Origin: a virus
Lineage: Duplodnaviria; Heunggongvirae; Uroviricota; Caudoviricetes
Direction: 5' to 3' (one strand)
Virus record (IMG/VR): IMGVR_UViG_3300022555_000023
Span: 8,095-72,094 of that record
Length of the DNA stretch: 64,000 nt
A program made the position numbers and the translations under genes. Every line of letters starts with the position of its first letter. Position 1 is the stretch's first letter. The notes under the pieces are model-generated. The model did not search any database. It saw nothing but the letters and a program-made list of their open reading frames with translations, and was not told the origin of the DNA. This document shows positions 17,604 through 61,638 of the stretch, one piece after another.

Positions 17604-18068
17604 TTACTCCATCCATGCCAGACACCCCGGCGTGCTACATCGTCCCCAGCAATGCCCGTTGATAGCCGCTATCGATAGCGTCAGCCGCCCGCCGCAGCCA
17701 GTCGGGCAATCTACGGTCTCCTGAGCGTTCTGGCGTTTGTGGCGGCTCCTGAAGGCATCCACGGTATCGGCGGCCATAGCATGACGTTCGAGAATACGGA
17801 TTAGTTCGATGTTCCTGGCTCGGCCCTCGGCCCGCGTGAACATAGCGAAATGATCACACGGCACGCGGTTTGAGTCCGATGCGTCGCTCAGTTTCCGGCA
17901 CGGTGCACGCAGTGCCCAGCCGATGTCAACCCCGCCTATCAGTCGCCTGATATCGATGTCCATAGCACACGGACGATCCTCTAACATGCCGCGAAAATGT
18001 CGGCATATCTGATCAGGCCCGGCCATCTTCGGGGCGGTTCTCATCCTGCGTCGTTCAGGCATGGTCAT
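17604..18068 (-). CDS. Cys-rich protein with N-terminal ERRRM tag
   Basis: MTMPERRRMRT.. CPTGCGG..GHCWGRCSTPGC. Confidence 0.65.
   Translation of the reverse strand: MTMPERRRMRTAPKMAGPDQICRHFRGMLEDRPCAMDIDIRRLIGGVDIGWALRAPCRKLSDASDSNRVPCDHFAMFTRAEGRARNIELIRILERHAMAADTVDAFRSRHKRQNAQETVDCPTGCGGRLTLSIAAINGHCWGRCSTPGCLAWME
17618..17625 (-). promoter_or_regulatory. GTGTCTGG junction motif
   Basis: 18 nt upstream of ATG 17599. Confidence 0.5.
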
Positions 18069-18111
18069 CTTTCAGTGGCGACGGCTTCATCATACGATGA
18101 CGCAATCACGA

Positions 18112-18963
18112 TCATAGTTCACCACCTTCACCCACGGGATTGTCGATGAAGTCCAGAAACTGTCGGCGTTGGTGGCCAGTCATGCTGCGAACTTGGTCTA
18201 CTGTCCAGCCATAGTATTCAGCCAGGCGTAGCTCGATGCAATCCTCGGGCGGTCGCAGGCCGATCATTACGATGTCCCACACGTTAGTGTTGTTGTTTCC
18301 GTTGCGGCCAACCAGCATGACCGTGCCCAGGGATAAGCTGCGTCGGACCGTGCTGGGCGACTCGCGGCCCGCACGAATGTTCTCCACGATGACTCCAGTA
18401 TCACGCACCTTGATCCGCACGCCAGACGGCTCCATACGGTCGGACATCAGCATCATGGCGTGTGCTTCGCCCAGTGGCCGCAGTTCCTCCAGCAGCACGC
18501 ACGACAGTATCTGGCTATATGAATCCGACCGCCGTCTGGTGAAGCATGACGTCATTTTGCGTCGTTCGACTGTTCTCGTGATTCGGAGTCGCTCCGGACG
18601 CTGCCGAACGTCATTGATCTCGATAACGATGAGGTTTTCTACAGTGCCACGATCACACCGCGGGTTAAATCGTGGGTCAGCAAACGTATTGCGATAACGT
18701 GGGTTTGGGTAGTTCTCATTCACGAGAGCATCACGACCATCGGAGAAACAGATCTCAGTCTCGGTTATGATCACCAAGTTTCGCGGCCCGCCAAAGTTGG
18801 ACCAGGCACATCGTAGCTCGACATCGTAGACTGACGGCACGCGTCCACCGACCAGAAGCGGCCTGATGTACATAACCAGGGCATTGACGTTGTGGCCCAG
18901 GCTGTCGGCGATGACCTTCATCATCACCTTGCCCGCCTTCGTGATCACGAGCATACCCGTCAT
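18112..18963 (-). CDS. hypothetical protein
   Basis: 283-aa ORF ending ..GEGGEL*. Confidence 0.65.
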   Translation of the reverse strand: MTGMLVITKAGKVMMKVIADSLGHNVNALVMYIRPLLVGGRVPSVYDVELRCAWSNFGGPRNLVIITETEICFSDGRDALVNENYPNPRYRNTFADPRFNPRCDRGTVENLIVIEINDVRQRPERLRITRTVERRKMTSCFTRRRSDSYSQILSCVLLEELRPLGEAHAMMLMSDRMEPSGVRIKVRDTGVIVENIRAGRESPSTVRRSLSLGTVMLVGRNGNNNTNVWDIVMIGLRPPEDCIELRLAEYYGWTVDQVRSMTGHQRRQFLDFIDNPVGEGGEL

Positions 18964-19247
18964 AAACTACACCGTAATCTTTCTAGAGTTGGATCGTAGC
19001 GATAGTTGTGCTTGACGCAGATATCCTGACACTGCTCCCAGGTGATGTTGCCCGCCTTGTACTGAGCAATCGCGTCGTTGGCCGCCGCCCGGTCGGCGTT
19101 CAGTTCGGCCCGCAGCTTCACCACCATATCGTGTAGCGGGCCGCGGTGCGGCTGGCACTTGTGCAGGGGCAGGCCCAGTGCCTGGAAGAACCGGCCCAGC
19201 CAGCCGATCTGGTCACCACACTTCTGACAACAGCTACTCGGGTACAT
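18960..19247 (-). CDS. hypothetical protein (N-terminal CxxC)
   Basis: 95-aa ORF, 4-nt overlap. Confidence 0.6.
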   Translation of the reverse strand: MYPSSCCQKCGDQIGWLGRFFQALGLPLHKCQPHRGPLHDMVVKLRAELNADRAAANDAIAQYKAGNITWEQCQDICVKHNYRYDPTLERLRCSL

Positions 19248-19518
19248 GATCTTCTCCTGGGCCTATCGCGGCCATCACTCGATGGTAGAGATCTTCAGGG
19301 AACTCGGGAAGCTGTAGTTCGCTTCTCACAATCTTCCCGATATCGGCACGCTCCAGTTCCAAACACGTGCGGATAATATCGTTTTGGGCGACGACGAACT
19401 CATCGTAGGGCTTCGTCGAGTCAAACTCGTTCTGGAACCGAATCAGCGTCTGCTGCGATACGCCCGATAGGTTCTTCCACACCTCACGCATCAACACAAC
19501 TCGATCATTTTCTGTCAT
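19234..19518 (-). CDS. hypothetical protein
   Basis: 94-aa ORF. Confidence 0.6.
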   Translation of the reverse strand: MTENDRVVLMREVWKNLSGVSQQTLIRFQNEFDSTKPYDEFVVAQNDIIRTCLELERADIGKIVRSELQLPEFPEDLYHRVMAAIGPGEDHVPE

Positions 19519-19570
19519 GATTTCGCCTTACAAATTAATCGTGGATCTCTTGTTTAGTAACGCCACCCAT

Positions 19571-21532: not shown

Positions 21533-21540
21533 CCAGACAC
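21533..21540 (-). promoter_or_regulatory. GTGTCTGG junction motif
   Basis: 13 nt after stop 21554. Followed by ATAAGGCATAGGAG. Confidence 0.5.
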
Positions 21541-21553
21541 GGGAGGTTCAATA

Positions 21554-21733
21554 TCATTTGTGAATCAAATAGATCGTCGGCTGCGGCTGAGGTGATTCAG
21601 GCGTGCCACGGTAGTACTTAGCCGTAACCAGAGTGTTCTCGTCCAGGCGACCAAGCTCCAGGATTACCTGAGTCTGATCCAGTTCCTGCCGCGGTATCGC
21701 CTCAAGCCATTGCAGAAGTTGCAGGCCAGTCAT
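21554..21733 (-). CDS. small hypothetical protein (59 aa)
   Basis: Below the ORF-track cutoff: MTGLQLLQWLEAIPRQELDQ.. A junction motif follows its stop. Confidence 0.5.
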   Translation of the reverse strand: MTGLQLLQWLEAIPRQELDQTQVILELGRLDENTLVTAKYYRGTPESPQPQPTIYLIHK

Positions 21734-21747
21734 GATTTGTCACCTTA

Positions 21748-23420: not shown

Positions 23421-23794
23421 AGCTCCCAGCCAGGCCGCGATGATGGCGGCGGTGCAGGTGGTTCGGGCGGCGGTGTCTGCATGCGGCGGCGTACTATGAC
23501 TGGCCTCGTCAGTTCCCGTACCAGGGCGATCATAGCGTTTGTGGCAGTCTCAACGTCGGGCATGCGGCGACTCATGAAGGCCGCCTGCCTGTCTTCCAGT
23601 ATCTGCTTAATGCGGTTCTTGACGTCTTCGTCGGACATAACCTCGCGGCCACGCACGAAGTCCTCGGAGAACCGCATGATCTGGCCACGATACTCTGACT
23701 TACGATAGGCATCGTTGGCCGCGACGAGGCGGGTTAGTAGATTATGCAGAAAGTCGGTGTCGCCTTGGTTCATGCCTAACCAGACACGGCTCAC
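23417..23794 (-). CDS. hypothetical protein with C-terminal RRRMQT tag
   Basis: ..VRRRMQTPPPEPPAPPPSSRPGWEL*. Start is GTG 23794 or ATG 23773. Confidence 0.6.
   Translation of the reverse strand: MSRVWLGMNQGDTDFLHNLLTRLVAANDAYRKSEYRGQIMRFSEDFVRGREVMSDEDVKNRIKQILEDRQAAFMSRRMPDVETATNAMIALVRELTRPVIVRRRMQTPPPEPPAPPPSSRPGWEL
23780..23787 (-). promoter_or_regulatory. GTGTCTGG junction motif
   Basis: Between stop 23791 and ATG 23773. Confidence 0.5.
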
Positions 23795-24003
23795 CGAGAT
23801 GATTCAGGCACTGTCCCGCCCTGGGGTTTGGCTCGCTCTAGATTAGCCTCGCGTGCGCTCAGGTTGATGGGCTTCGACCGGCAGCCATGACACAGCGTGT
23901 GGTACTTTTCCTTCGGCTGGAACGTCTGATAACACCGCATACACGGTCGCTTCGGGGGCAGGTCTTCTGCGTCATCTTCTTCGATTAGAACGTCCGTGCT
24001 CAT
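23791..24003 (-). CDS. small zinc-ribbon protein
   Basis: CMRCYQ..CHGCR. Confidence 0.6.
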   Translation of the reverse strand: MSTDVLIEEDDAEDLPPKRPCMRCYQTFQPKEKYHTLCHGCRSKPINLSAREANLERAKPQGGTVPESSR

Positions 24004-28889: not shown

Positions 28890-29251
28890 AGCCCCTTCTG
28901 ATCACGCTCCAGTTTGATGCGGGGACTGTTCAAGTACCTGTGCATCTCACGCCACAGGCGGCGGGACTCATCGGTCAGCCATATTAGGTAGTCCAGTGGA
29001 ACAGCATCGATACGCTTACCCTCGTACTTCCCAAACCTCATGGTCGCCGTCTGGCCATAGGCTTTGGCCTCGACATCGTTCATGGGTACGGTCGCCGCAG
29101 TTCCCTGTTCCGGACGAACAGGTGCTGGTAGCCAGGGACTTATCAGTTCGCCTAAACGATTAGCAACAATACGACGACCGAGATCATTCATATCACTAAC
29201 TTCGCTAATGACCAAGGCTGCCAACTCGGATGCAACTTCACCTGGACTCAT
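28886..29251 (-). CDS. DUF3820-like protein
   Basis: MRFGKYEGKRIDAVPLDYLIWL signature. The N-terminal 42 aa are paralogous to 30046..30177. Confidence 0.6.
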   Translation of the reverse strand: MSPGEVASELAALVISEVSDMNDLGRRIVANRLGELISPWLPAPVRPEQGTAATVPMNDVEAKAYGQTATMRFGKYEGKRIDAVPLDYLIWLTDESRRLWREMHRYLNSPRIKLERDQKGL

Positions 29252-29793
29252 TTAGGTTGATTCCTTACTAAATTCCGTTCCACAATCGCCTCTGCAACTC
29301 GAAGTAAAGGCCCCTCACCCCAGACACCCATAGCGTTATTCACTAGTAACCAAACAATTCTAATGTTACCCTGAACGTAACCACACGATGGATCAATACG
29401 ATCTAACGACATCTTTCCGTAGTCAGTAGTTTGCTCAAACGGCATAGCCGTTATAGCACAAACACCGCCCTGTAAATCATAAACCTGACGCAGGTATTCT
29501 AGCGATATGTTGCAATCCAGGTTACGTCTGGCACTACGAGCACGTGCGTTTCGCATCATACACTCTAACGCTATGGAAACATCTACGTGACGACGATCTC
29601 GATGCTTGCGTTGACTCTTGCCAATTATCGCCCTTGCCTTGTCTGGATCATTCTTCCAAAGTTCTGCCCATCTTTTTGCACTACGCATATTTATAGATTC
29701 ACGATTCCGTAGGTAACACTGGCGATTTGTGTACCTCTTTCTAGCCTTCCTAATTTCTTCAGGACTTGTTTGAATTCGTCGTCGTTCTAGCAT
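29248..29793 (-). CDS. HNH homing endonuclease, N-terminal ERRRIQT
   Basis: TAAGGAGC SD before ATG 29793 (MLERRRIQT). ..SLDRIDPSCGYVQGNIRIVWLLVNNAMG. Locally AT-richer than its surroundings. Confidence 0.75.
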   Translation of the reverse strand: MLERRRIQTSPEEIRKARKRYTNRQCYLRNRESINMRSAKRWAELWKNDPDKARAIIGKSQRKHRDRRHVDVSIALECMMRNARARSARRNLDCNISLEYLRQVYDLQGGVCAITAMPFEQTTDYGKMSLDRIDPSCGYVQGNIRIVWLLVNNAMGVWGEGPLLRVAEAIVERNLVRNQPK

Positions 29794-29926
29794 GGCGATG
29801 CTCCTTATGCAGTCCGCCAGAGGCCCTGGAGCATCGCCAAACGCAGACAGGGCGTGGCGGACATGATTTGGGCATTGGCGATGCTCGACTAGACTCATGG
29901 TACATTAAACCACAGCCGATAGCAAC

Positions 29927-31199: not shown

Positions 31200-31207
31200 C
31201 CAGACAC
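31200..31207 (-). promoter_or_regulatory. GTGTCTGG junction motif
   Basis: 22 nt upstream of ATG 31177, just after two hairpins. Confidence 0.5.
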
Positions 31208-32753: not shown

Positions 32754-32789
32754 CATCCAGACACGTCGGGTTCGTATGACGCCTGGATG
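32754..32789 (-). promoter_or_regulatory. hairpin CAUCCAG-G-CGUC/GACG-UGU-CUGGAUG containing the junction motif
   Basis: Imperfect inverted repeat read from the sequence, between lipoprotein stop 32792 and SPFH start 32711. Confidence 0.5.
32757..32764 (-). promoter_or_regulatory. GTGTCTGG junction motif
   Basis: 45 nt upstream of ATG 32711. Forms the 3' arm of the hairpin. Confidence 0.5.
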
Positions 32790-35255: not shown

Positions 35256-35693
35256 TTAACCAGACACTGCACTTCTATCACGGTAATGTACTTTGCGATG
35301 ACAGTTTGAACAAAGCACTATGCACTTCCGAACCTCGGCTATGATTAGATCAATGGGAACACTAGTATTTATCATGTGCCTAACGCTATCAACTTTCTCG
35401 CCAGTAACATGATGAAAATCTAAACACGCAATATGCGTTTCCCCACACGAGCATCTATCAACACCGAGCACAGCAAGTAGACGTAACTTCATGTTCTCGC
35501 TACGCTTCCGATAACGTATACGACATGATTCCCGTGCATAGCTCGTTCTTACATAAATCCTCGCAGCCTCTCTTCGGCATGATAGACACGTGGATACGGG
35601 CCGACCGCGTGACATACAGAAGTTGCCCGTAATCGGTTTAGTGTACCCACATTTAGCACATCGCTTCGTTGCTATTTTCTGTCGTTCAACCAC
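35256..35693 (-). CDS. HNH homing endonuclease
   Basis: CSCGE..LDFHHV..N..CSNCHRKVH. N-terminus MVERQKIAT. AT-richer than its flanks. Confidence 0.8.
   Translation of the reverse strand: MVERQKIATKRCAKCGYTKPITGNFCMSRGRPVSTCLSCRREAARIYVRTSYARESCRIRYRKRSENMKLRLLAVLGVDRCSCGETHIACLDFHHVTGEKVDSVRHMINTSVPIDLIIAEVRKCIVLCSNCHRKVHYRDRSAVSG
35260..35267 (-). promoter_or_regulatory. GTGTCTGG junction motif
   Basis: Overlaps the last codons and stop of HNH gene 35256..35693. Confidence 0.5.
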
Positions 35694-35715
35694 GACTGTT
35701 CTCCAAACGCCGCCC

Positions 35716-35760
35716 GCCCCACCAGCAGAAGTAGCCGCGAAGTTAGATCGCTGGTGGGGC
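35716..35760 (-). terminator. perfect 11-bp stem hairpin GCCCCACCAGC/GCTGGTGGGGC
   Basis: Read from the sequence, 23-nt loop, about 20 nt upstream of the HNH start. Confidence 0.4.
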
Positions 35761-35822
35761 GTTTGGCGTGTACGGGAGTTCGCGGCTACCGTCGAGTTAA
35801 CAACTCAGTATAGCTTATCATA

Positions 35823-36005
35823 TCAAACAGTACAACACATATCCACGGTTCGGCGTTGCAGCAACTCATCCAGACACCGCGACTCAAATCGAGACACCCG
35901 TATCATCTGCCTGAATCGCAGTCCGTAGACACTGTCCCAGATATAGGCCATGTCCCAGCCGTACTTGGCCGTATCCCGCAGGATTTGTAGCTGCCGGCGG
36001 GTCAT
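35823..36005 (-). CDS. small hypothetical protein
   Basis: 60-aa ORF, MTRRQLQIL.., 4-nt overlap with the epimerase stop. Confidence 0.45.
   Translation of the reverse strand: MTRRQLQILRDTAKYGWDMAYIWDSVYGLRFRQMIRVSRFESRCLDELLQRRTVDMCCTV
35870..35877 (-). promoter_or_regulatory. GTGTCTGG junction motif
   Basis: In or near small ORF 35823..36005. Degenerate copy GTGTCTCG at 35890..35897. Confidence 0.4.
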
Positions 36006-42189: not shown

Positions 42190-42197
42190 CCAGACAC
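42190..42197 (-). promoter_or_regulatory. GTGTCTGG junction motif
   Basis: 3 nt after the stop of 42201..42686. Confidence 0.5.
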
Positions 42198-42200: not shown

Positions 42201-42686
42201 CTACATACCGGAAAACACAATAATCCAGTCGTGCAATGAACTGCCTGACGATACGTTAGCTACATAAACTTGCTGGCTTTTTAGCCCGAGGGCATTCACA
42301 TACAGCTCCTTGACCACCCAGTGTTCATCCTGCCACGCCAACTGAACTGTAATTGGTGATTTAAGGCTTGCCGCACGAGCATCGTCTTTCCATTCGGATG
42401 ACGGTATAGAGTACTCGTCGCGGAACGTAACCGTCGCCGTGTACGGCGTTATCATCGAATCCGTCTTCTTGACATCATAATGCAAGTCATGAGCAGTCGC
42501 ACCACGCGGCGTGCCGCGTGCCACGCGAGCCAGAATATCCTTCATGGCCGAGACTGGATCGGGTTTGACCGGAACGGAAACCAGGACAGGATCAGCAGAC
42601 TGTTTGGCGTTGGGTGTCGACGTTACGGATGTCTCGAACGAGCATCCGGCAACGATCAACAAAAGTACGAGACTCGCAAACTTCAT
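42201..42686 (-). CDS. lipoprotein
   Basis: Trimmed to MKFASLVLLLIVAGCS lipobox. Confidence 0.7.
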   Translation of the reverse strand: MKFASLVLLLIVAGCSFETSVTSTPNAKQSADPVLVSVPVKPDPVSAMKDILARVARGTPRGATAHDLHYDVKKTDSMITPYTATVTFRDEYSIPSSEWKDDARAASLKSPITVQLAWQDEHWVVKELYVNALGLKSQQVYVANVSSGSSLHDWIIVFSGM

Positions 42687-42732
42687 GATACTACCTTTCG
42701 AGTTAGTGGAGATGTAAACCTGCATCACGTCA

Positions 42733-42740
42733 CCAGACAC
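42733..42740 (-). promoter_or_regulatory. GTGTCTGG junction motif
   Basis: Abuts stop TAG of 42740..43669, 46 nt upstream of ATG 42686. Confidence 0.5.
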
Positions 42741-43669
42741 TACTCAAGCGGTGCATTTCCGATATCATATCTCCCGTCACCGGCTCGCGTCAGGGTGCGG
42801 TACTGAAACGGCATTACGCCAGCGTTGGGCGGGGATTGGCTATCGGGTACGATATCGAACGATGGATGATATACAATGAACGCAAACGCCGCACGATGCG
42901 GCTCGTGGTGAACGCTGCGTATGACAGCCCCGTGCGGCAATTCGGGGTCGATGCCGACCACGATGTAGTCGGGATCCTCGCGGTAGAAGGCGATCAGCAG
43001 TTCTCGCTCGCGGATGTAGTATATCATCTCGCGGCGTTCCCGGTTGGGGGCATGGGACATGTCCATGACTCGCCCGCGGGCCACGCCACGCAAATCTTCA
43101 CCGATGGCGGGGCATCGCGGTTGGGCCTCGCAGATGACTCCCGATTGACCGTTTCCCATGTGGAACGCTAGGTTCTCGGGGCCACCCAGCGGTAACGGGG
43201 CTGCCCGCCCGCCTGAACGCGGCACGTTGCTCACGTTGGGCCTTGCGGAAGATACGCGGCCCGTTTCCGTACTATGCCACTGAAGCCGCCTGTCGAGGTT
43301 TACGGCCTCGTCAAAGGCTACGCCGCTGATCTCCTGTCCGCGAAGCGGTACGTTATCCGGTGGAACCCACAGCCCGGCGATACCGGCACGCTGCCCTGGC
43401 GGGTAGGCCACCTCCATGTTCAGCACCACCTGACCGTTACACACATAAGCTGTACAGTTCCTAACCGTCGCCGGCTCACCGTTGATGTTGATGAATCGGT
43501 TCATCAAGTCGACGTTGATGTTGCCCGGGTCAGGGCTCGCGATCCTCATACCGAATTGACCGGCACGCATCGGTTCGGGGCGTAGGGACGGCGGAACGGG
43601 TGGCGGACCACCTGTGTTCATACGTCGTCGAACTACAGGCGGTGTCTGGATGCGTCTACGTTCGGGCAT
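42740..43669 (-). CDS. hypothetical protein with doubled N-terminal tag
   Basis: MPERRRIQTPPVVRRRMNTGGPP.. after TAGGAGCA SD. Confidence 0.7.
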   Translation of the reverse strand: MPERRRIQTPPVVRRRMNTGGPPPVPPSLRPEPMRAGQFGMRIASPDPGNINVDLMNRFININGEPATVRNCTAYVCNGQVVLNMEVAYPPGQRAGIAGLWVPPDNVPLRGQEISGVAFDEAVNLDRRLQWHSTETGRVSSARPNVSNVPRSGGRAAPLPLGGPENLAFHMGNGQSGVICEAQPRCPAIGEDLRGVARGRVMDMSHAPNRERREMIYYIRERELLIAFYREDPDYIVVGIDPELPHGAVIRSVHHEPHRAAFAFIVYHPSFDIVPDSQSPPNAGVMPFQYRTLTRAGDGRYDIGNAPLE

Positions 43670-43697
43670 GACTTGCTCCTATACGACGTCTAGACAC
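43642..43697 (-). promoter_or_regulatory. imperfect inverted repeat bracketing SD and ATG of 42740..43669
   Basis: Minus strand: GTGTCTAGACGTCG..TAGGAG..ATG..GACGCATCCAGACAC. Outer 6-8 bp plus an inner CGUC/GACG pairing are possible. Confidence 0.4.
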
Positions 43698-44519
43698 GAA
43701 GATTCGCTTTACTTCGTCCACATCGGTGCGGAGCGTAACCAGTTGCCGCATGATTGCCAGTCCATCATCGCGGAACTTCAGCAGGGCGGCCCTGCGGGAC
43801 GCGCTGACCTTAACTGAATCGATGTTATCGTAAATAGCGTCGATGCTGCCCCACTGCCGAATAGCCTCGCTGGCCGTCTTCTCGCCCCATCCCGGACAAC
43901 CAGGCACACCGTCTCCAGAATCACCAGCGAGGGTCTGATAATCAATCCACTGACGCGGCGTCAGGCCCTTCTGATCGAGAAGAAGCTGCGGCGTCATCCA
44001 CTCAATGTTTGTGATACCCGATCCCAACAGGTGGAACTTCTTGATGATCGTTACGCGGTCGGCAACCAAGCACTGGTTGAGGTCTTTGTCGGGCGACGCG
44101 AGCACGGCATCACTGCCCACGGCGACCGCCCTGGCGGCTAAGGCAGCTAGGCAATCATCCGCTTCAAAACCGTTTACCTGAACCACCACGGCCCAGTCCT
44201 TCAGCACGCCCAGAGCATTCTCCAGTACGAAGTGCAGGTTCTCGTCGTGCGGGCGTTCGCCCCGTTTGGCCTTATAGGGCGGATAGAGATCATGCCGGAA
44301 GCTCCTGCGGTCGAGGCACACCACCACCAGCTTCGGCTGTAGGTTCCGCGTCAGGGCGTCGATGCGGCGCACCACAGTCTCCAGCACATCGTGCCCGTTG
44401 TTGGCATGGTAGATAGTGTGCAGCCAGTTCGTACCGTCGATGCCGAGATAGACTTGACGGCTGGCCCGTGTGGTAGCGACATCGAACAATGATCGATCCG
44501 GGCGGCGGATTGCCATCAT
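43656..44519 (-). CDS. 5'-3' exonuclease / flap endonuclease (Pol I N-terminal domain family)
   Basis: IDGTNWLH, YKAKRGERP, GFEADDCLAALA and a helix-3-turn-helix segment LAGDSGDGVPGCPGWGEKTA. C-terminus ..SRRRIGASHART*. Confidence 0.85.
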   Translation of the reverse strand: MMAIRRPDRSLFDVATTRASRQVYLGIDGTNWLHTIYHANNGHDVLETVVRRIDALTRNLQPKLVVVCLDRRSFRHDLYPPYKAKRGERPHDENLHFVLENALGVLKDWAVVVQVNGFEADDCLAALAARAVAVGSDAVLASPDKDLNQCLVADRVTIIKKFHLLGSGITNIEWMTPQLLLDQKGLTPRQWIDYQTLAGDSGDGVPGCPGWGEKTASEAIRQWGSIDAIYDNIDSVKVSASRRAALLKFRDDGLAIMRQLVTLRTDVDEVKRIFVSRRRIGASHART

Positions 44520-44995
44520 ATCCTCACGGATACGTGAACTCCGGTCAGCAGCGACTTGGTCACTCCCGCCGGCATCTCGGAGCTTGAATATTCCTTGCGG
44601 CCCAGCGATATGCTCAGCACGGTCAGGCCGGTCCGTAGCTCGAACTCTCGCACCAGCGTGCCCACCGATTCAGCTAACGCTATTTTGGCTCGCTTGGCCT
44701 CGTCGATGTTCATGCTTTGGATTTCCGGTACTTTGACCTCGTTCATCAGGGCGCACATCTTACGGATGGCCTTCTCCTCGATCTGGCGGATGCGGGCGAC
44801 GGTGGTCTTGAAGATGTGGGCCACCTCCTGAAATGTGTAGCAGTAGCCATCGCCAAAACCGAACCGCAGCTTGAGTATCTCACGCTCGCGATAGGTGATC
44901 TTGCTGAGATGAATCACTACAGCGTCTTTGCCCAGCACGGAGATCGCCGTGCCGAACTTTTGCAGTACTTCAGATCTTGTTGGTTTTTTGGTCAT
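44516..44995 (-). CDS. sigma-70 region-4-like helix-turn-helix protein
   Basis: Trimmed to ATG 44995. REREILKLRFGFGDGYCYTFQEVAHIFKTTVARIRQIEEKAIRKM is a region 4.2 signature. I recognise no region 2. Confidence 0.65.
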   Translation of the reverse strand: MTKKPTRSEVLQKFGTAISVLGKDAVVIHLSKITYREREILKLRFGFGDGYCYTFQEVAHIFKTTVARIRQIEEKAIRKMCALMNEVKVPEIQSMNIDEAKRAKIALAESVGTLVREFELRTGLTVLSISLGRKEYSSSEMPAGVTKSLLTGVHVSVRI

Positions 44996-48964: not shown

Positions 48965-49312
48965 CTACCACGTGCGGTAGATGATCGGGTCGTCCACCCA
49001 CACCACGCGGCGGGTATATCCGTGACGTTGCTCGATGTAAGACGGCGGCTGAACTTGCTTCTTGCAGTTTCGCTGCTCGATACGGGACGGCGGCTGTACC
49101 TGATGCCAGACACCGCACTCGCCGCACTTCCGCCACTCGGGAGCAGGAACCACGGTGATCTCATACGTTGATTCCACCCACACCGGGGCCGGATAGACGG
49201 TGACGTTGTATGTCGTCTCGTCCCACACCTCTTGCCACGCCGCATTCGCCGTTCCGCAAAGCAGCATCATGGCACAAATCAAACCAGCAAACCACTTCAT
49301 GATGACCTCCAC
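48965..49312 (-). CDS. secreted protein with short internal repeats
   Basis: Signal-like MKWFAGLICAMMLLCGTANA. VQPPSRIEQR/VQPPSYIEQR duplication. Confidence 0.6.
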   Translation of the reverse strand: MEVIMKWFAGLICAMMLLCGTANAAWQEVWDETTYNVTVYPAPVWVESTYEITVVPAPEWRKCGECGVWHQVQPPSRIEQRNCKKQVQPPSYIEQRHGYTRRVVWVDDPIIYRTW

Positions 49313-52765: not shown

Positions 52766-52773
52766 CCAGACAC
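52766..52773 (-). promoter_or_regulatory. GTGTCTGG junction motif
   Basis: 13 nt after stop 52787, 24 nt upstream of start 52741. Confidence 0.5.
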
Positions 52774-53615: not shown

Positions 53616-54686
53616 TCATTCAGACACAGATGATTCTAGACGTCGCCGCGTCAATTGCCGGCCTACGGTTTCCTCCGGGTTGGCCCGTGGAAACTGCGGG
53701 CCGGCCAAGCACGCCTTGCCCGCTGCCTTCAGGTCGTCGCTGATCTGGTCGGCGTTGCTGGCGCAGTAGTGATTGAACAGGTCACCGGGCGGCAGACGCC
53801 GGGCGGCCAAGTCCATCGGGCTCATGTGGTGAACATCGCGTTCCACGAGCCTGCACCCGCACAGCACGGCCCTTTGGCGTTCGGCAAACTCCTGCACCCG
53901 CCGGCGGCACTCGTTCCAGGTGTCAAACTCGGCCCGCTTCAGCCGCACCTCGATCTTGATCATGTCGCCGGGGTTCACCCGCATATCGGTAAGCCGGTCG
54001 GTGCCATCGATGACCAGCTTCCGCTTGGCCGGGAACGGCGGGTTGATATCCTCGTAGTCCCGACCACTGTCGAAGATCACCCGCGGTATGTATTCATCGC
54101 CGAAGTCAACGTGGTACGGTGCCCCGACATACTCGATGTTCGCCAGCCGCTGCGGAACATGAACGTCCCCGCAGTATACCCTCGCCCGCGTACCCGAGAA
54201 CGTCGAAGTCGGCAGGCCATCTAAACGCTTCCCGCCGCCGATACTGGCCCCGTGGAATGTCTGGTGGGCGAATATGTAGTCGAAGTCGGACATCCTGTAG
54301 CCTTCGGCGTACTGCCGCACAGCCCGCGTGTGAGGCAGGAACAGGCACTTGGACTCGCCGAGGGTGCGCTTGGTAGGCTCCAGAAAGAACTCCACGCCCG
54401 TATGCCGCAGCCAACGGAAGTAGGGCACGTCGGGGTTCACGTAATCGTGGTTGCCCATCAGAACGATAGTCGGAGCGGCGTCGTCGAGGAGTTTCAGCCC
54501 ATCGGCAATAGCGTTCGCCAGGGCCGAAGAGTGTCGATCCTTGGATTCCGTCAAATCCCCAAGGATTATGATATAGTTCACGTGCCGCCGCGTCGCCTCA
54601 CCCGCCAGCCACTCAAAGATTCTCAATCGATAGGCGTCTCGCAGGTTATCGGTCTCGTGCAGGTCGCTGGCTATCAGTAAGTTCAT
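53616..54686 (-). CDS. Mre11/SbcD-like metallophosphoesterase nuclease
   Basis: LIASDLHE, ILGDLTE, MGNHD and FAHQTFHGA calcineurin-like motifs. C-terminus ..LTRRRLESSVSE*. Confidence 0.8.
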   Translation of the reverse strand: MNLLIASDLHETDNLRDAYRLRIFEWLAGEATRRHVNYIIILGDLTESKDRHSSALANAIADGLKLLDDAAPTIVLMGNHDYVNPDVPYFRWLRHTGVEFFLEPTKRTLGESKCLFLPHTRAVRQYAEGYRMSDFDYIFAHQTFHGASIGGGKRLDGLPTSTFSGTRARVYCGDVHVPQRLANIEYVGAPYHVDFGDEYIPRVIFDSGRDYEDINPPFPAKRKLVIDGTDRLTDMRVNPGDMIKIEVRLKRAEFDTWNECRRRVQEFAERQRAVLCGCRLVERDVHHMSPMDLAARRLPPGDLFNHYCASNADQISDDLKAAGKACLAGPQFPRANPEETVGRQLTRRRLESSVSE

Positions 54687-54808: not shown

Positions 54809-54833
54809 CCGTACTAACAGACACCCGCACCGT

Positions 54834-56821: not shown

Positions 56822-56829
56822 CCAGACAC
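56822..56829 (-). promoter_or_regulatory. GTGTCTGG junction motif
   Basis: Intergenic, 90 nt upstream of ATG 56731. Confidence 0.45.
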
Positions 56830-56863
56830 GGTGGCGTTGTACGCGTTGCAGATACGTGGTATA

Positions 56864-56871
56864 GTGTCTGC
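56864..56871 (+). promoter_or_regulatory. GTGTCTGC variant co-oriented with a plus-strand gene
   Basis: 1 nt upstream of ATG 56873 of the plus-strand HNH gene. Confidence 0.4.
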
Positions 56872-57934: not shown

Positions 57935-58005
57935 GATATCGTCTTTCCGTAACAACTCTTGCGTATTAGCAATAGCTTTGCTACAATAAAGCAAAGGAGA
58001 TAACT

Positions 58006-58479
58006 ATGTCCCGCCACGCCATACCACTTGATGTTAGATTCCACACTGTGCCCAAACGCCGAAGAATCGGAGGATGTTTGATCTGGATGGGCGGAACCAG
58101 AAGTGGCTATGGAATGATAGGATCCGGTGGCACGAACTCGAAGCCACTGTACGCCCACCGCGTCGCTTATGAACTCGCTTACGGCCCAATACCGGATGGT
58201 ATGTATGTCTGTCACCACTGTGATAACCCACCGTGCGTCGAGCCTACACACCTGTTCCTCGGAACACAGCAAGATAACGAAGACGACTGTGTTTCCAAAA
58301 GACGGCACATGCACGGAGCCACCCACTATAACGCTAAGATGACTACACCCCAGGTTATTGAAGCTCGTCTCCTTTACGCGACTGGTGAATTTGGGTACTA
58401 CCGACTCGGAATACGATTTAACGTCAACCCCACAACGATTCGTAACATCATCAAGGGCTATACACGACAGCTTGAATAG
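58006..58479 (+). CDS. HNH_3-type homing endonuclease (plus strand)
   Basis: AAGGAG SD. YAHRVAYELAYGPIPDGMYVCHHCDNPPCVEPTHLFLGTQQDN. Confidence 0.85.
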   Translation: MSRHAIPLDVRFHTVPKRRRIGGCLIWMGGTRSGYGMIGSGGTNSKPLYAHRVAYELAYGPIPDGMYVCHHCDNPPCVEPTHLFLGTQQDNEDDCVSKRRHMHGATHYNAKMTTPQVIEARLLYATGEFGYYRLGIRFNVNPTTIRNIIKGYTRQLE

Positions 58480-58483
58480 ACGT

Positions 58484-59044: not shown

Positions 59045-59048
59045 AGTC

Positions 59049-59198: not shown

Positions 59199-59203
59199 GG
59201 TTC

Positions 59204-59416: not shown

Positions 59417-59417
59417 A

Positions 59418-59672: not shown

Positions 59673-59675
59673 CTC

Positions 59676-60248
59676 CTAGCGACGTCCGCGTCGTGCCGCC
59701 CAGCGAGCAAATAGGCCCTGGCGTTCGCGCCCGCCCCGTGACGATCCGTACTGATCACCCTGCGGTGTCGTTTCAGGGGCGACGGCTGGGGGCGTCTGGC
59801 CGACTTCGCGTCGGGCCTCGGCTGTTTGCAGGGGATGCGTGATAGCCCGCACAGCGTTTGCCACAGGGCCGTTGGGTCGATTGCCCACGAATAACTGGCA
59901 GAACTTGACCCCGTTGTTGTATGACGCTGCGGCCCCGGCGTAGGTAAAGTTGCCGGTTGTATTGCACGCCAGCCAGCCACTGCTGATAGCTCCGCCGTCG
60001 CAGCCGCCGAAGTCGGCCCATGATCCCCTGGGCAGGAACGCGAAGTCGTTCCCGGTGTGGTGATGCATGCCGTAACTGGCACGATAGTCGGCGCAGGCCA
60101 TCGCACCCTGCGTCATCGCTGCGTCCCGCTGGAATGCAGGCATACCGTGCTGGGCACGAATTGCGTTCACTTCATCGAGAGCATCGGTCGCGGCATTGGC
60201 AATGCCCGCAATGCATACGACCACAAAGAACAAAACTGACTTCATCAT
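59676..60248 (-). CDS. secreted CAP/SCP/PR-1-like protein
   Basis: Trimmed to ATG 60248 (TAGGAGGA SD). Signal MMKSVLFFVVVCIAGIANA. ALDEVNAIRAQHGMPAFQRDAAMTQGAMACAD resembles the SCP-like family. Confidence 0.55.
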   Translation of the reverse strand: MMKSVLFFVVVCIAGIANAATDALDEVNAIRAQHGMPAFQRDAAMTQGAMACADYRASYGMHHHTGNDFAFLPRGSWADFGGCDGGAISSGWLACNTTGNFTYAGAAASYNNGVKFCQLFVGNRPNGPVANAVRAITHPLQTAEARREVGQTPPAVAPETTPQGDQYGSSRGGRERQGLFARWAARRGRR

Positions 60249-60276
60249 CTTCTTCCTCCTAATGGTGAAATTCGCC

Positions 60277-61470
60277 TTAGCTACCGTACTTCGAGAAGTT
60301 CGGCGAGAATGACTCCTCGATCTTGTCCCACTCGGCCCGCACCACTGCGGACATACGCTTGGATTCGCTAATGTACATTTCACGCGGCTGTTTGTCCAGC
60401 CACTTCAGGTACGTTCCAGGTTTTCGTTCATCGAACAGTTCCCACTTCTTCACCTCAACTAACCAGTCTGCCATCGATTCGATGTCATCGATGCCGTAGT
60501 CAAAGATCACGGGGAACTCGCACTCGCGGAACGGCGGGCCACACTTGTTCTTCTTGCACTTGGCCTTGATGCGAACACCGACCACGCGTTCGATGCCGTT
60601 GACCGAGCGTTTGATCTGGCCAATATGCGACAGCCACACCACCCACGAAGCGTAGAAGTCCAGGGCTTTGCCGCCGGCACGCGTCGCCTTCTCGCCGAAC
60701 GATACATTCAGCTTGTCGCGTAGCTGCGAGATGACTATCAGGGTCACCTTGGCGGAGTTCAAAGGGCCGGCCAGGGTGCGGAAGAACTGTGACATGCGTT
60801 TGGCCTTCGCCATACCGTAACTGGCCTTGTCCATACCGCCATCCAGTTCGGCCTGATCGCTCAGGGCATCAAGGCTATCGATGATATACAAGCCTGGCAC
60901 GCGACGGCGTTCACACTCGGCAATGAAGTCCTTCACGTCCTGAAAGAACACCTCGACGATACGGCACTCCTCGACGAAGCTGATTCTGTCCATCGGCAGT
61001 CCCATGCGGCGGGCATAATTCACATCGAACGCGGCCTCGGCGTCGTTATATCGCGTGATGCCGGTCGGATAGGCGATGGAAAAGTTGGCACACGCCTCGA
61101 TGCATACGCCTGTCTTGTTCGTTGACTGCCAGCCAGCGAAGTTCACCACGCGGCCTTCAGGGAACGCTCCGCCACCACCACCACCAATCTCGCAGTCCAG
61201 AAGGGTACAGCCCGAACCGAATCGTTTAACACGGATATCCTCCATGTCGCCCGTGAGCCCGTAGGCCCCACCGTCGCGTACCAACGGCTCGTCATCGGTA
61301 TCGCGGGCGGTCTTGCGGCGAGTAGCCTTAGCCGTGCGACGTGGGGCTGCACGTGACCCGCGGGCCGGTGTTTCATCTTCGGTTGACTCGACGTCTTCGT
61401 CCTCTTCCTCACGCTGCGGAGGTGGGGGCGTTGCCGTTACGAGACGTCGTCGAACTATTTTCTTCGCCAT
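60277..61470 (-). CDS. RecA-fold recombinase-like ATPase
   Basis: Degenerate P-loop GWQSTNKTG, Walker B LYIIDSLDAL, GGKALDFYAS as in RecA. Acidic N-terminal region preceded by MAKKIVRRRLVT. Confidence 0.65.
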   Translation of the reverse strand: MAKKIVRRRLVTATPPPPQREEEDEDVESTEDETPARGSRAAPRRTAKATRRKTARDTDDEPLVRDGGAYGLTGDMEDIRVKRFGSGCTLLDCEIGGGGGGAFPEGRVVNFAGWQSTNKTGVCIEACANFSIAYPTGITRYNDAEAAFDVNYARRMGLPMDRISFVEECRIVEVFFQDVKDFIAECERRRVPGLYIIDSLDALSDQAELDGGMDKASYGMAKAKRMSQFFRTLAGPLNSAKVTLIVISQLRDKLNVSFGEKATRAGGKALDFYASWVVWLSHIGQIKRSVNGIERVVGVRIKAKCKKNKCGPPFRECEFPVIFDYGIDDIESMADWLVEVKKWELFDERKPGTYLKWLDKQPREMYISESKRMSAVVRAEWDKIEESFSPNFSKYGS

Positions 61471-61613
61471 GATCTAACCTTCCTGATGCCCCGTATGCAC
61501 AGTCCTATGAAGAAGACATACAACATTCCGGGTGCGGTCAAAATGATGAACGGGAAAGTCCAAATCTTGTGAACTTTCTCCGCCTCGTCGCATACGTCTA
61601 AAAACCAGTTCAT
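61455..61613 (-). CDS. small membrane protein (52 aa)
   Basis: GAGG SD, MNWFLDVC..FPFIILTAPGMLYVFFIGLCI. Overlaps the recombinase start. Confidence 0.45.
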   Translation of the reverse strand: MNWFLDVCDEAEKVHKIWTFPFIILTAPGMLYVFFIGLCIRGIRKVRSWRRK

Positions 61614-61638
61614 AGTTACCTCGGCTGACTAGACACGA

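What the first reader, a model, noticed from the sequence alone, without database searches (positions are those of the whole stretch)
17618..61635. Strand-specific 8-mer GTGTCTGG concentrated at gene junctions
**Counts (by eye).** I found 13 exact minus-strand copies:
- 17618, 21533, 23780, 29320, 31200, 32757, 35260, 35870, 42190, 42733, 49106, 52766, 56822

I also found one-mismatch variants:
- ATGTCTGG at 23241
- GTGTCTGA at 24606, 50958 and 53620
- GTGTCTAG at 43690 and 61628
- GTGTCTG at 54818

Only one exact copy lies in the opposite orientation (43642..43649). About one copy per strand is expected by chance for an 8-mer in 64 kb.

**Position.** Roughly 17 of the 20 copies lie within ~60 nt of a stop/start junction. 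Typically they sit 0-15 nt after the upstream stop, or overlap it in any reading frame (for example SAVSG*, HVWIG*, GCLAW). They sit 10-90 nt before the next start codon and upstream of the SD. At 31200 the order is stop, two hairpins, motif, AAGGAG, ATG.

**Orientation.** One of the two plus-strand genes has a co-oriented variant GTGTCTGC 1 nt before its ATG (56864). The motif therefore follows transcription direction rather than replication strand. It often extends to GTGTCTGGAT(A/G).

**Interpretation.** This resembles phage-specific promoter or transcription-start elements, the stoperator and start-associated sequences described for some mycobacteriophage clusters, or an RNA-processing site. 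The window also encodes a sigma region-4-like protein (44516..44995) that could read such a site.
Basis: seen in the sequence. Interest (0 to 1): 0.7.

Follow-up and report, generated by a model that had tools for sequence, protein, structure and literature searches.

The report
Strand-specific phage gene-junction motif GTGTCTRG
An uncultivated ~192 kb phage and its close relatives carry a short, exactly conserved DNA word just in front of many replication and other non-structural genes, always pointing in the direction of transcription; it is most likely a phage-specific promoter of a previously undescribed sequence type.

Summary
GTGTCTGG occurs 13 times on the minus (coding) strand and once on the plus strand, against about 1 expected per strand.

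- **Shape:** it is a sharply bounded word. Positions 1-6 are invariant and positions 7-8 are tolerant (GTGTCTAG, GTGTCTGA), followed by an A/T base and a loose T-A-R-G-C.
- **Location:** in an 89 kb reconstruction of the source genome, 24 copies lie on the coding strand and 1 on the other. They are enriched at gene junctions (p about 1e-6).
- **Module:** the motif is confined to the non-structural gene block. There are none in 26 kb of the terminase/structural block (P about 5e-5).
- **Conservation:** relatives with 78-81% protein identity keep it at orthologous junctions while the flanks diverge. In one reversed gene block of a relative it flips strand with the genes. Phages at about 30% identity lack it.
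- **Distance to genes:** ten copies sit 15-25 nt before a start codon, with the Shine-Dalgarno sequence in between. That excludes a -35-type role.

The best reading (about 0.5) is a single-element, -35-less promoter, analogous in architecture to T4 late promoters but different in sequence and gene class. Rivals are an RNA 5'-UTR or processing element, an operator, and a sequence-specific terminator.

The parts
17618..17625 (-). GTGTCTGG, junction copy. GGAG and then ATG follow 18 nt downstream (250-aa gene 16847-17599).
21533..21540 (-). GTGTCTGG, 13 nt after the stop of 21554-21733, in a 169-nt spacer. Followed by ataagGCATAGGAG.
23780..23787 (-). GTGTCTGG, 3 nt after the stop of 23791-24003. 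ttaggcATG follows, with the ATG 6 nt downstream; this would be a leaderless start under the promoter model.
29320..29327 (-). GTGTCTGG inside the 3' part of gene 29248-29898, 68 nt upstream of the next ATG (29251).
31200..31207 (-). GTGTCTGG in the 106-nt spacer after the Band_7 gene. The order is stop, two hairpins, motif, tacaGCATAAGGAG, ATG (22 nt downstream).
32757..32764 (-). GTGTCTGG in an 80-nt spacer, 27 nt after a stop and 45 nt before the ATG of the 475-aa Band_7 gene.
35260..35267 (-). GTGTCTGG overlapping the last codons and stop of an uncalled HNH ORF (35256-35693), 84 nt before the next gene.
35870..35877 (-). GTGTCTGG inside a doubtful 60-aa ORF, 177 nt upstream of the HNH ORF start.
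42190..42197 (-). GTGTCTGG, 3 nt after the stop of 42201-42725, at the 5' edge of a 160-nt spacer before the TSCPD-domain gene. Followed by tgatGCAT.
42733..42740 (-). GTGTCTGG overlapping the TAG stop of 42740-43669, 46 nt before the ATG of a lipoprotein-like gene. Conserved at the orthologous junction in L004 (20857) while the flanks diverge.
43690..43697 (-). GTGTCTAG variant, 20 nt before the AGGAG-preceded ATG (43669) of the 309-aa gene.
49106..49113 (-). GTGTCTGG inside a 111-aa gene that is absent from the relatives, 159 nt upstream of the SbcC-like ATG. May be a chance or internal copy.
52766..52773 (-). GTGTCTGG in a 54-nt spacer, 13 nt after a stop and 33 nt before the ATG. Aligned with L004 4980.
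53620..53627 (-). GTGTCTGA variant at the 3' end of the SbcD-like gene. The orthologous position in L004 (3290) carries exact GTGTCTGG.
54817..54824 (-). GTGTCTGT variant, 9 nt into the 147-nt spacer upstream of the SbcD-like gene.
56822..56829 (-). GTGTCTGG in a poorly coding region (only a 51-aa ORF is called), 257 nt upstream of an HNH gene. It lies back-to-back with plus-strand GTGTCTGC (56864-56871).
61629..61636 (-). GTGTCTAG variant, 2 nt after a stop and 15 nt before the GAGG-preceded ATG of the small ORF leading into the RecA/UvsX-like gene.
43642..43649 (+). The only opposite-strand exact copy. As CCAGACAC on the minus strand it can pair with the GTGTCTAG at 43690-43697, enclosing the SD and ATG (hairpin of -18 kcal/mol). 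It may be a chance copy.
44516..44995 (-).
1..17600 (-). Motif-free block leading into the terminase/portal (structural) module. There is no GTGTCT at all on the coding strand from here through 8.3 kb beyond the window.

Best explanation
**Claim.** GTGTCT(G/A)G, extended consensus c-GTGTCTRG-W-K-A-R-G-C, is the core of a phage-specific, single-element promoter with no -35 element. It drives the non-structural genes (replication, recombination, small accessory genes) of this ~192 kb phage and its close relatives.

**Inferred geometry.** The 8-mer occupies roughly -14 to -7. A short A/T-rich discriminator follows. Transcription starts about 7 nt downstream, often at the A of a G-C-A. This gives 12-17 nt leaders that contain only the Shine-Dalgarno sequence, and in a few cases leaderless mRNAs.

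**Shown.** Strand specificity, junction location, restriction to one gene module, orthologous conservation, the strand flip with gene orientation, and the spacing to SD/ATG.

**Inferred.** That the word acts on DNA as a promoter element, and where the start site lies.

**Unknown.** Which polymerase or factor reads it.
For: 1. 13 vs 1 copies in the window and 24 vs 1 in 89 kb. Only the full word is strand-biased.
2. Junction enrichment at p about 1e-6. Apart from SD words and one tandem array, it is the only dispersed word enriched in non-coding DNA.
3. Sharp boundaries. Positions 1-6 never vary at junction sites, and position +1 is A/T in 24/25 sites. This is the signature of a protein-read site.
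4. Module specificity. There are 24 sites in 63 kb of non-structural genes and 0 in the next 26 kb holding the terminase (P=5e-5). There are none on the coding strand of the relatives' terminase/portal loci.
5. In relative L107 the one copy lies on the opposite strand, inside a reversed gene block. It has the full layout GTGTCTAG-atca-GCAT-aga-AGGAG-N7-ATG.
6. Conserved at orthologous junctions while flanks diverge. These are the DNA-pol junction (GG vs AG, both 25 nt before the ATG), the SbcD end, the exonuclease-downstream junction and the 52766 junction.
7. Motif-to-start distance is 15-25 nt at 10 sites with the SD in between (GGAG within 14 nt in 10/30 sites vs 1.7 expected). This is compatible with a start about 7 nt downstream and incompatible with a -35 role.
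8. A/T-rich +1 to +3 (54/75, p=1.5e-7), G-C at +5/+6 (16 and 13 of 25) and GCA within +3 to +7 in 9/25 sites (p=8e-4). This resembles a discriminator plus a C(-1)A(+1) start.
9. Where hairpins occur, the order is stop, hairpin, motif, SD, ATG.
10. Sigma70-type promoters are not above shuffle expectation in the 40 kb scanned (17001-57000).
11. Architectural precedent. The T4 late promoter is a lone, highly conserved 8-mer at -13 to -6 (PMC1524935).
Against: - There are no transcript 5'-end data, so nothing here distinguishes a DNA-level from an RNA-level role directly.
- The word is G+C-rich (5/8), which is unusual for an element that nucleates melting.
- At 23780 and at L004 12356 the start codon is only 6-8 nt downstream. 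Those genes would need leaderless translation or another promoter.
- About half of the junction copies hug the upstream stop codon (0-13 nt) and have 46-149 nt to the next start. A 3'-end signal would explain this equally well.
- No cognate sigma or RNA polymerase was found in the 89 kb available. The remaining ~103 kb could not be read.
- The GCA feature was noticed post hoc and is present in only about a third of sites.
Confidence: 0.5

Rival explanations
1. RNA-level element. GUGUCURG acts in the transcript, in 5' UTRs or intercistronic regions. It could be a sequence-specific endonuclease processing site that cuts polycistronic RNA just upstream of each SD. Or it could be the binding site of a phage RNA-binding regulator that controls translation or stability.
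For: - The motif is strand-specific and co-oriented with transcription.
- It lies between the stop and the SD, 6-10 nt upstream of the SD at about 10 sites.
- The downstream 40 nt are less structured than random (p=1e-4).
- At the DNA-pol junction a stable hairpin abuts the motif on its 5' side, as expected for a protected 3' end after cleavage.
- The phage encodes a CsrA-family RNA-binding protein that is conserved in the relative.
- One site can pair with an inverted copy to sequester the SD and ATG.
- No other promoter-like signal is needed for this reading.
Against: - CsrA proteins read GGA cores, and this one keeps the canonical residues. Only 10 of 25 junction copies have A after GG, and 14 have T.
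- An exact 8-nt single-stranded RNA recognition site with no structural context would be unusual.
- If the motif is purely an RNA signal, promoters must lie elsewhere. None are detectable above chance in the 40 kb scanned.
- The G-C-A feature at +5 to +7 fits a start site better.
Confidence: 0.2
2. DNA operator. The 8-9-mer is the asymmetric binding site of a phage DNA-binding regulator. It could be a repressor or roadblock, as at mycobacteriophage stoperators, or an activator. It would coordinately switch the non-structural genes off or on.
For: - The site is asymmetric, oriented with transcription, present in many copies at gene junctions and clade-specific in sequence. These are the hallmarks of stoperators (PMC6550527).
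- Sharp boundaries and invariant positions are typical of a protein-DNA site.
- The window encodes an HTH protein (sigma region 4.2) of unknown role.
Against: - No integrase or immunity repressor was seen in 89 kb.
- The sites are absent from the structural block, whereas stoperators are distributed across the genome.
- 8-9 bp is short compared with the 13-bp stoperator.
- The candidate HTH gene is missing from relatives that keep the motif.
- The consistent 15-25 nt spacing to start codons and the A/T-rich, G-C-A flank are not required of a roadblock.
Confidence: 0.15
3. Sequence-specific transcription pause or termination signal. This would be like the hairpin-independent class II ATCTGTT signal of T7-type polymerases (recalled from memory). 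It would be placed just after stop codons to end or attenuate upstream transcription units.
For: - About half of the junction copies start between -12 and +13 nt relative to the upstream stop codon, even when the downstream spacer is long. Examples are 42190, 42733, L010 4977, L010 6440 and L004 20857.
- The motif is strand-specific.
- Canonical intrinsic terminators are not enriched.
Against: - In long spacers the motif is often next to the start rather than the stop. Examples: 31200 is 76 nt after the stop and 22 nt before the ATG; L111 6268 is 114 and 25; L107 is 24 nt before an ATG.
- Hairpins precede the motif rather than follow it.
- No U-tract follows.
- No single-subunit polymerase gene was found in the 89 kb.
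Confidence: 0.06
4. A DNA-level, expression-independent oriented word. Candidates are a Chi-like recombination hotspot, primase or packaging sites, or a restriction/modification-related asymmetric site. Alternatively it is a compositional or codon artefact.
For: - It is an oriented 8-mer at about one copy per 3-4 kb, on the strand that would be the lagging-strand template if replication and transcription are co-directional.
- The phage encodes RecA-, SbcCD- and exonuclease-type recombination genes and several methyltransferases.
Against: - The motif is absent from 26 kb of the same strand in the structural block (P=5e-5).
- It is concentrated in the 8% of the DNA that is non-coding.
- It flips strand with gene orientation in L107.
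- It has a fixed relation to SD and ATG.
- Its sub-words are not strand-biased, so composition and codon usage do not explain it.
- It overlaps gene ends in different reading frames.
Confidence: 0.04

Closest known systems
Bacteriophage T4 late promoters (TATAAATA at -13 to -6, read by gp55 with gp33 and the gp45 clamp; PMC1524935)
   Same: - A lone, almost invariant 8-bp element with no -35 partner.
- Strand-specific.
- Many copies per genome, just upstream of short leaders.
- Often overlapping the end of the upstream gene.
- Serves one temporal or functional gene class.
   Different: - The sequence is unrelated and G+C-rich (GTGTCTRG).
- It serves the non-structural block and is absent from the terminase/portal block.
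- No gp55/gp33 homologue was found in the 89 kb read.
- The replication module uses a family A polymerase, not the T4 type.
Stoperators of Cluster A mycobacteriophages (13-bp asymmetric repressor sites; PMC6550527, PMC9283540)
   Same: - Asymmetric and oriented with transcription.
- Dozens of copies, mostly at gene boundaries.
- The consensus is specific to a narrow clade.
   Different: - 8-9 bp instead of 13 bp.
- Restricted to one gene module rather than spread over the genome.
- No repressor or integrase seen.
- Consistent spacing to the SD and start codon.
Start-associated sequences (SAS) of Cluster K mycobacteriophages (GGGATAGGAGCCC; PMC3203893)
   Same: - One orientation.
- Restricted to the non-structural half of the genome.
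- Associated with gene starts and conserved across subclusters in front of unrelated genes.
- Function still unknown.
   Different: - An SAS contains the SD itself and lies 3-7 bp from the start codon.
- This motif lies upstream of a separate SD, 15-75 nt from the start, and has no AGGAG core.
-10 elements of ECF sigma factors (GTC-containing; RpoE/AlgU-type TCTGA). Recalled from memory, not tested against a database.
   Same: The word contains G-T-C and T-C-T-G-(G/A). If transcription starts at the downstream G-C-A, these fall at about -12 to -8.
   Different: - ECF promoters need a GGAAC-type -35 element 16-17 bp upstream, and none is present.
- No ECF-type sigma (regions 2 plus 4) was found.
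- The only sigma-like ORF is region 4.2 alone.
Promoter-stem-loop cassettes (PeSL) of T4-type hyperplastic regions. Recalled from memory.
   Same: - Small accessory genes are individually flanked by a hairpin and a promoter-like word.
- Gene content varies between relatives at motif-bearing junctions.
   Different: - PeSL promoters are sigma70 early promoters.
- Here hairpins accompany only a few copies.
- No recombination role was demonstrated.

Membership tests
T4-type late promoter | Single short, highly conserved element without a -35 partner | tested here: met
   Flanks carry essentially no information upstream. The core 8-mer is invariant at positions 1-6.
T4-type late promoter | Consensus TATAAATA (A/T-rich) | tested here: not met
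   The consensus is GTGTCT(G/A)G.
T4-type late promoter | Located 5' of late (virion) genes | tested here: not met
   0 copies in 26 kb containing the terminase, and none on the coding strand of the relatives' terminase/portal loci.
T4-type late promoter | gp55/gp33/gp45 recognition machinery | tested here: inconclusive
   No gp55/gp33-like hit among the proteins scanned or in the precomputed Pfam of 89 kb. A clamp loader is present. About 103 kb of the genome is unread.
Cluster A stoperator | Asymmetric site predominantly in one orientation relative to transcription | tested here: met
   24 vs 1 copies. The strand flips with a reversed gene block in L107.
Cluster A stoperator | Sites distributed throughout the genome, including structural genes | tested here: not met
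   Absent from the structural block (P=5e-5). Definition from PMC6550527.
Cluster A stoperator | Bound by the phage immunity repressor to block elongation | not testable with these tools
   No repressor or integrase was recognised in the 89 kb. Binding needs an experiment.
Cluster K start-associated sequence | One orientation, restricted to the non-structural half | tested here: met
   Definition from PMC3203893.
Cluster K start-associated sequence | Occupies the RBS position, contains AGGAG, 3-7 bp from the start codon | tested here: not met
   The motif lies upstream of a separate SD. The distance to the start is 15-25 nt at 10 sites and up to about 75 nt at others.
Sigma70-type promoter | -35 TTGACA and -10 TATAAT hexamers 16-18 bp apart | tested here: not met
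   No conserved partner at any fixed offset from -45 to +44. Consensus matches are at or below shuffle expectation.
ECF sigma promoter | GGAAC-type -35 element 16-17 bp upstream of a GTC-type -10 | tested here: not met
   GTC is present in the word, but no AAC or other enriched word lies at -40 to -10.
Chi-like recombination hotspot | Oriented octamer spread along the genome irrespective of gene boundaries and following replication polarity | tested here: not met
   Junction-concentrated, module-restricted, and flips with transcription.
CsrA/RsmA binding site | GGA core (A(N)GGA), often in a hairpin loop or the SD | tested here: not met
   Position +1 after GG is A in only 10/25 junction copies and T in 14. 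The phage CsrA keeps the canonical residues.

The most novel reading that the evidence does not exclude
The G+C-rich 8-9-mer is the complete promoter for a transcription system that has not been described. One possibility is an unrecognised phage-encoded RNA polymerase or sigma-like factor encoded in the unread ~103 kb. Another is a host polymerase whose -35 recognition is disabled by the phage, for example by the stand-alone sigma region-4.2 decoy at 44516-44995 occupying the beta-flap, so that only this -10-position word is read. The phage may infect little-studied PVC-group bacteria.
Probability: 0.15. Interest if true: 0.7.

Novelty: new variant of a known kind. Interest (0 to 1): 0.45.

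Why it matters
If it is a promoter, the motif maps transcription units across the whole non-structural half of an uncultivated ~192 kb phage lineage. That lineage has no cultured relative closer than about 30-40% protein identity.

It also points to a promoter-recognition mechanism with no -35 element and a G+C-rich core. Such a mechanism is not covered by known sigma70, ECF or T4-late rules.

In practice, the word can be used to:
- annotate gene starts, including small and possibly leaderless ORFs;
- sort genes into temporal classes;
- recognise further members of the clade in metagenomes.

The same genomes carry a phage CsrA and an orphan sigma region-4.2 domain. Together these suggest layered takeover of host gene expression that could be tested once a host is found.

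Tried and rejected
- **Fixed-register partner element (-35 or -10).** Information content from -45 to +44 shows nothing except the A/T at +1 to +3 and G at +5.
- **Sigma70-like promoters and intrinsic terminators.** Neither is above shuffle expectation in the 40 kb scanned (17001-57000).
- **tRNA or Rfam RNA association.** None found.
- **Close relatives in GenBank phages or IMG/VR.** None found.
- **The motif in about 90 distant relatives (about 30% SbcC identity).** It is not enriched there. Their top words are coding or tandem repeats, except L033.
- **A second dispersed junction word, ATGTAGACAG.** It turned out to be a 15-bp tandem array.
- **'Iteron-like' cluster of GTGTCT words at 35.2-35.9 kb.** It is explained by an uncalled HNH ORF.
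- **Sigma region-4-like protein as reader.** Rejected on geometry, absence from relatives and altered helix residues.
- **CsrA site.** Rejected because the GGA core is lacking in most copies.
- **Literature search for the raw 8-mer.** It returned only macrophage primer noise.
- **Walking the genome downstream via the 1676-aa protein.** The search returned only a 59% homologue. That homologue did supply the relatives' late loci.
- **Host identification via the epimerase gene.** Best hits are Verrucomicrobiota and Planctomycetota MAGs at 72-74%, but the enzyme is similarly conserved in many phyla, so this is only a weak hint.

Full report
**1. The observation**

GTGTCTGG occurs 13 times on the minus strand at exactly the coordinates given, and once on the plus strand at 43642.
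- 100 dinucleotide-preserving shuffles give a mean of 2.5 for both strands together. The maximum is 6 and none reaches 14.
- An order-3 Markov model expects 1.05 copies on the minus strand. It is the most abundant strongly over-represented 8-mer on that strand.
Two coordinates are off by one.
- The asymmetry belongs to the whole word. GTGTCT is 25 vs 8 in an 80 kb composite, while GTCTGG, GTGTC and TGTCT are symmetric. Codon usage or base skew therefore does not explain it.

**2. What the window is**

The window is phage DNA with 57.7% G+C, and nearly all genes are on the minus strand.
- It encodes a RecA/UvsX-like recombinase, an SSB-like protein, SbcC- and SbcD-like nuclease subunits, a 5'-3' exonuclease and methyltransferases.
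- It matches a circular ~192.4 kb metagenomic contig (ENA ERZ27245846 k141_83342). The fetched stretches of that contig overlap the window at 99.99-100% identity apart from a 30-bp repeat-number difference.
- No GenBank phage is close. The best RecA match is 41% and the best PolA match 30%, to Edwardsiella phage ZHS and the Vibrio MAR10 group. IMG/VR has no close relative either.
- Using loci fetched around window genes and the DNA polymerase, I built an 89 kb reconstruction with the source pipeline's gene calls.
- In transcription order it runs: accessory/metabolic genes (including a CsrA homologue), DNA polymerase, clamp loader, SSB, RecA, SbcD, SbcC, exonuclease, many small genes, polyamine genes, an 895-nt gene-free region, large proteins, and the large terminase, which contains an intein.

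**3. Anatomy of the motif**

*Boundaries.* Aligned on the 13 exact copies, the flanks carry almost no information.

*Junction variants.* These change only positions 7-8: GTGTCTAG four times in the 80 kb composite (five in the 89 kb reconstruction), GTGTCTGA, and GTGTCTGT. None of the 51 variants at positions 1-6 lies in non-coding DNA.

*Extended consensus.* From 25 junction copies in three lineages it is c-GTGTCT(G/A)G-W-K-A-R-G-C.
- Position +1 is A or T in 24/25 sites.
- A/T at +1 to +3 is 54/75 against 42% expected (p=1.5e-7).
- G is present at +5 in 16/25 and C at +6 in 13/25.
- GCA lies within +3 to +7 in 9/25 (p=8e-4; this feature was noticed post hoc).

*Downstream features.*
- The 40 nt downstream are less structured than random 40-mers (p=1e-4).
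- The strongest downstream feature is the Shine-Dalgarno sequence. GGAG lies within 14 nt in 10/30 copies against 1.7 expected (p=3e-6).
- At ten sites an SD-preceded start codon lies 15-25 nt after the motif. The other sites have 33-75 nt.

*Upstream features.*
- About half of the junction copies begin within 13 nt after the preceding stop codon or overlap it, in different reading frames.
- Where hairpins exist, the order is stop, hairpin(s), motif, SD, ATG. This is seen at 31200 and at the DNA-pol junction.

**4. Distribution**

In the 89 kb reconstruction, GTGTCT(GG/AG/GA) occurs 24 times on the coding strand and once on the other.
- 14/24 lie in junction territory, which is 16% of the sequence (p=3.5e-6).
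- 10/24 lie in strictly non-coding DNA, which is 8.4% of the sequence (p=1e-5).
- An unbiased ranking of all 6- to 8-mers by non-coding enrichment returns only SD words, GTGTCT and one tandem array.
- All 24 copies lie in the first 63 kb. The following 26 kb, which lead into and include the terminase, have none (P=5e-5). They contain no GTGTCT hexamer at all on that strand.

**5. Relatives**

*Close relatives keep the motif.* Two lineages with 78-81% SbcC identity (about 70-78% nucleotide identity) carry it on the coding strand only. L004 has 6 vs 0 in 21 kb and L010 has 3 vs 0 in 8.7 kb.

*Orthologous junctions keep it while the flanks diverge.*

| Window-phage site | Relative's site | Note |
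|---|---|---|
| 42733 (GTGTCTGG) | L004 20857 (GTGTCTGG) | exonuclease-downstream junction |
| 52766 (GTGTCTGG) | L004 4980 (GTGTCTGG) | |
| 53620 (GTGTCTGA) | L004 3290 (GTGTCTGG) | end of the SbcD-like gene |
| DNA-pol junction (GTGTCTGG) | L111 6268 (GTGTCTAG) | both 25 nt before the ATG, with unrelated upstream flanks |

- One junction shows gain or loss.
- The relatives' terminase/portal loci (L107-L109) have no copy on the coding strand.
- The single copy in L107 is on the opposite strand, inside a block of five reversed genes. It reads GTGTCTAG-atca-GCAT-aga-AGGAG-ccgtatc-ATG. This is the best evidence that the word follows transcription rather than a replication strand.

*Distant relatives lack it.* About 90 loci from phages with about 30% SbcC identity show no enrichment of the word. 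It is therefore specific to a narrow clade.

**6. Mechanism**

*What the data exclude.*
- Chance, composition, and genome-wide DNA-level roles (Chi-like, primase, packaging, restriction-related). Such sites would not be confined to one gene module, concentrated in the 8% non-coding DNA, or flip with gene orientation.
- A -35-type role. The start codon is only 15-25 nt downstream at ten sites.

*The best-supported reading* is a single-element promoter.
- The 8-mer lies at about -14 to -7.
- It is followed by an A/T-rich discriminator.
- Transcription starts at the A of G-C-A about 7 nt downstream.
- This gives 12-17 nt leaders that hold only the SD.
- At 23780 the A of the ATG itself sits at that distance, which would make the mRNA leaderless.

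This is the architecture of T4 late promoters, a lone conserved 8-mer at -13 to -6 (PMC1524935). The sequence is different, and the motif serves the non-structural rather than the virion genes. Sigma70-like promoters and intrinsic terminators are not above shuffle expectation in the 40 kb scanned (17001-57000), so no other recurrent signal competes there.

I put this at about 0.5. Nothing computed here separates a DNA-level from an RNA-level role directly, the word is G+C-rich, and no cognate factor was found.

*Rivals, in order.*
1. An RNA 5'-UTR or processing element (0.2). It fits the position between stop and SD and the hairpin abutting the DNA-pol copy.
2. An operator or stoperator-like site (0.15).
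3. A hairpin-independent terminator (0.06).
4. An expression-independent DNA word (0.04).

**7. The sigma-like protein**

ORF 44516-44995 has a Sigma70_r4 domain at residues 30-80.
- A HMMER scan of 1.8 billion representatives finds no full-length homologue. Only residues ~23-88 match, at 55-70% identity, to region 4.2 of bacterial sigmas.
- Against solved sigma structures it aligns to VTRERIRQIEAKALRKL as TTVARIRQIEEKAIRKM. The R-E pair that contacts the -35 element in E. coli sigma70 (from memory) is therefore V-A.
- The gene is absent between the orthologous methyltransferase and exonuclease genes of L004 and L005. tblastn does not find it in any retrieved DNA of the motif-bearing relatives.

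Together with the geometry argument, this makes it an unlikely reader. It could instead be a region-4 decoy. That is speculation.

**8. Comparison with known systems and novelty**

*Works like:* T4 late promoters in architecture. It resembles stoperators and start-associated sequences in genomic distribution (PMC6550527, PMC3203893).

*Member of:* none. Each family fails at least one defining feature that was tested (see the membership table). I therefore file it as a new variant of a known kind, namely phage-specific gene-expression signals. It belongs to an uncultivated phage clade whose host is unknown. The only host hint is weak: an epimerase gene has its best matches, 72-74%, in Verrucomicrobiota and Planctomycetota MAGs.

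**9. Verdict**

The feature is real, statistically robust, conserved and clade-specific. It is most likely a promoter, and the reader protein is unknown. Interest is moderate (0.45). It is a useful and somewhat unusual signal, but it is not outside known categories unless the reading machinery proves novel.

Noticed in passing
L110:6091-6288 (same genome, about 16 kb beyond the window's right end); orthologue at L111:2238-2432: The phage encodes a 65-aa CsrA-family RNA-binding protein (Pfam PF02599). It keeps the canonical motifs (VTVTVL, VSVRRVE) and is conserved in the 79%-identity relative. A GTGTCTGG / GTGTCTAG copy lies 199 nt upstream, inside the preceding gene, in both phages.
   Followed up: partly
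window 44516-44995 (-): An orphan 159-aa protein made of a stand-alone sigma70 region 4.2 (res. 30-80, 55-70% identical to bacterial sigmas) plus a unique C-terminal half. The recognition-helix R-E is replaced by V-A. It has no full-length homologue among 1.8 billion representatives and is absent from the L004 lineage. It may be a beta-flap or anti-sigma decoy.
   Followed up: partly
window 10784-10853, within the gene-free region 10580-11474: A perfect 15-bp tandem array (plus-strand unit CTGTCTACATAGATA, 4.7 copies). The ENA contig has two more units (a 30-bp difference). It lies in an 895-nt gene-free region between the non-structural and structural blocks. It could be an origin or an iteron-like regulatory region.
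   Followed up: partly
window 35256-35693 (-) and 35700-35800: An A/T-richer HNH endonuclease ORF (…CSNCHRKVH…SAVSG*) that the source pipeline did not call. It is preceded by two interleaved inverted repeats (GTAGCCGCGAA…TTCGCGGCTAC and CGCCCCACCAGC…GCTGGTGGGGCG, in the order 1-2-1'-2'). That order implies a pseudoknot or mutually exclusive hairpins.
   Followed up: no
window 43642-43697 (-): The GTGTCTAG variant and the only reverse-complement copy (CCAGACAC) flank the SD and ATG of the 309-aa gene. They can form a hairpin of -18 kcal/mol that would sequester the translation start.
   Followed up: partly
window 57940-58005 (+), upstream of the HNH gene 58006-58479 (+): The plus-strand HNH_3 endonuclease gene has no GTGTCT motif. 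It has a good sigma70-like promoter, TTGCGT-17 nt-TACAAT, followed by AGGAG and ATG. Host-type promoters therefore do occur, on this mobile gene.
   Followed up: no
window 56822-56871: Back-to-back arrangement: minus-strand GTGTCTGG (56822-56829) and plus-strand GTGTCTGC (56864-56871) lie 34 nt apart. They sit in a poorly coding 670-nt region next to HNH genes. This may be a divergent control region.
   Followed up: partly
L033 (IMGVR_UViG_3300037067_013176), e.g. 6109, 7410, 12382, 15251, 17606: A distant relative carries 11-13 dispersed, strand-specific copies of (G)GAGCAGTTTGTATG. This appears to be a conserved SD + spacer + ATG unit, like a start-associated sequence. Two copies fall inside the tblastn match to the SbcC-like protein (10001-11689).
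   Followed up: no
L004:17755-19563; L015:16572-19337; P0016 (L111:6301-9858): Mobile elements differ between the lineages. L004 has a TnpB (Cas12f1-like_TNB) gene inserted after the exonuclease gene. The window phage has an intein with a LAGLIDADG domain in its large terminase, and the relative's terminase lacks it. The relative's DNA polymerase is 306 aa longer.
   Followed up: no
window 12476-13718 (-); L110:1-1735 and 7028-8308: Auxiliary metabolic genes: S-adenosylmethionine decarboxylase plus spermidine synthase (polyamine synthesis), an amidoligase with a GATase, and an OMP decarboxylase / phosphoribosyltransferase fusion.
   Followed up: no
window 36002-37012 (-): The NAD-dependent epimerase gene is 72-74% identical to genes of Verrucomicrobiota and Planctomycetota MAGs, which are the best of 600 or more matches. 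It is almost as similar to genes of many other phyla, so this is only a weak host hint.
   Followed up: partly
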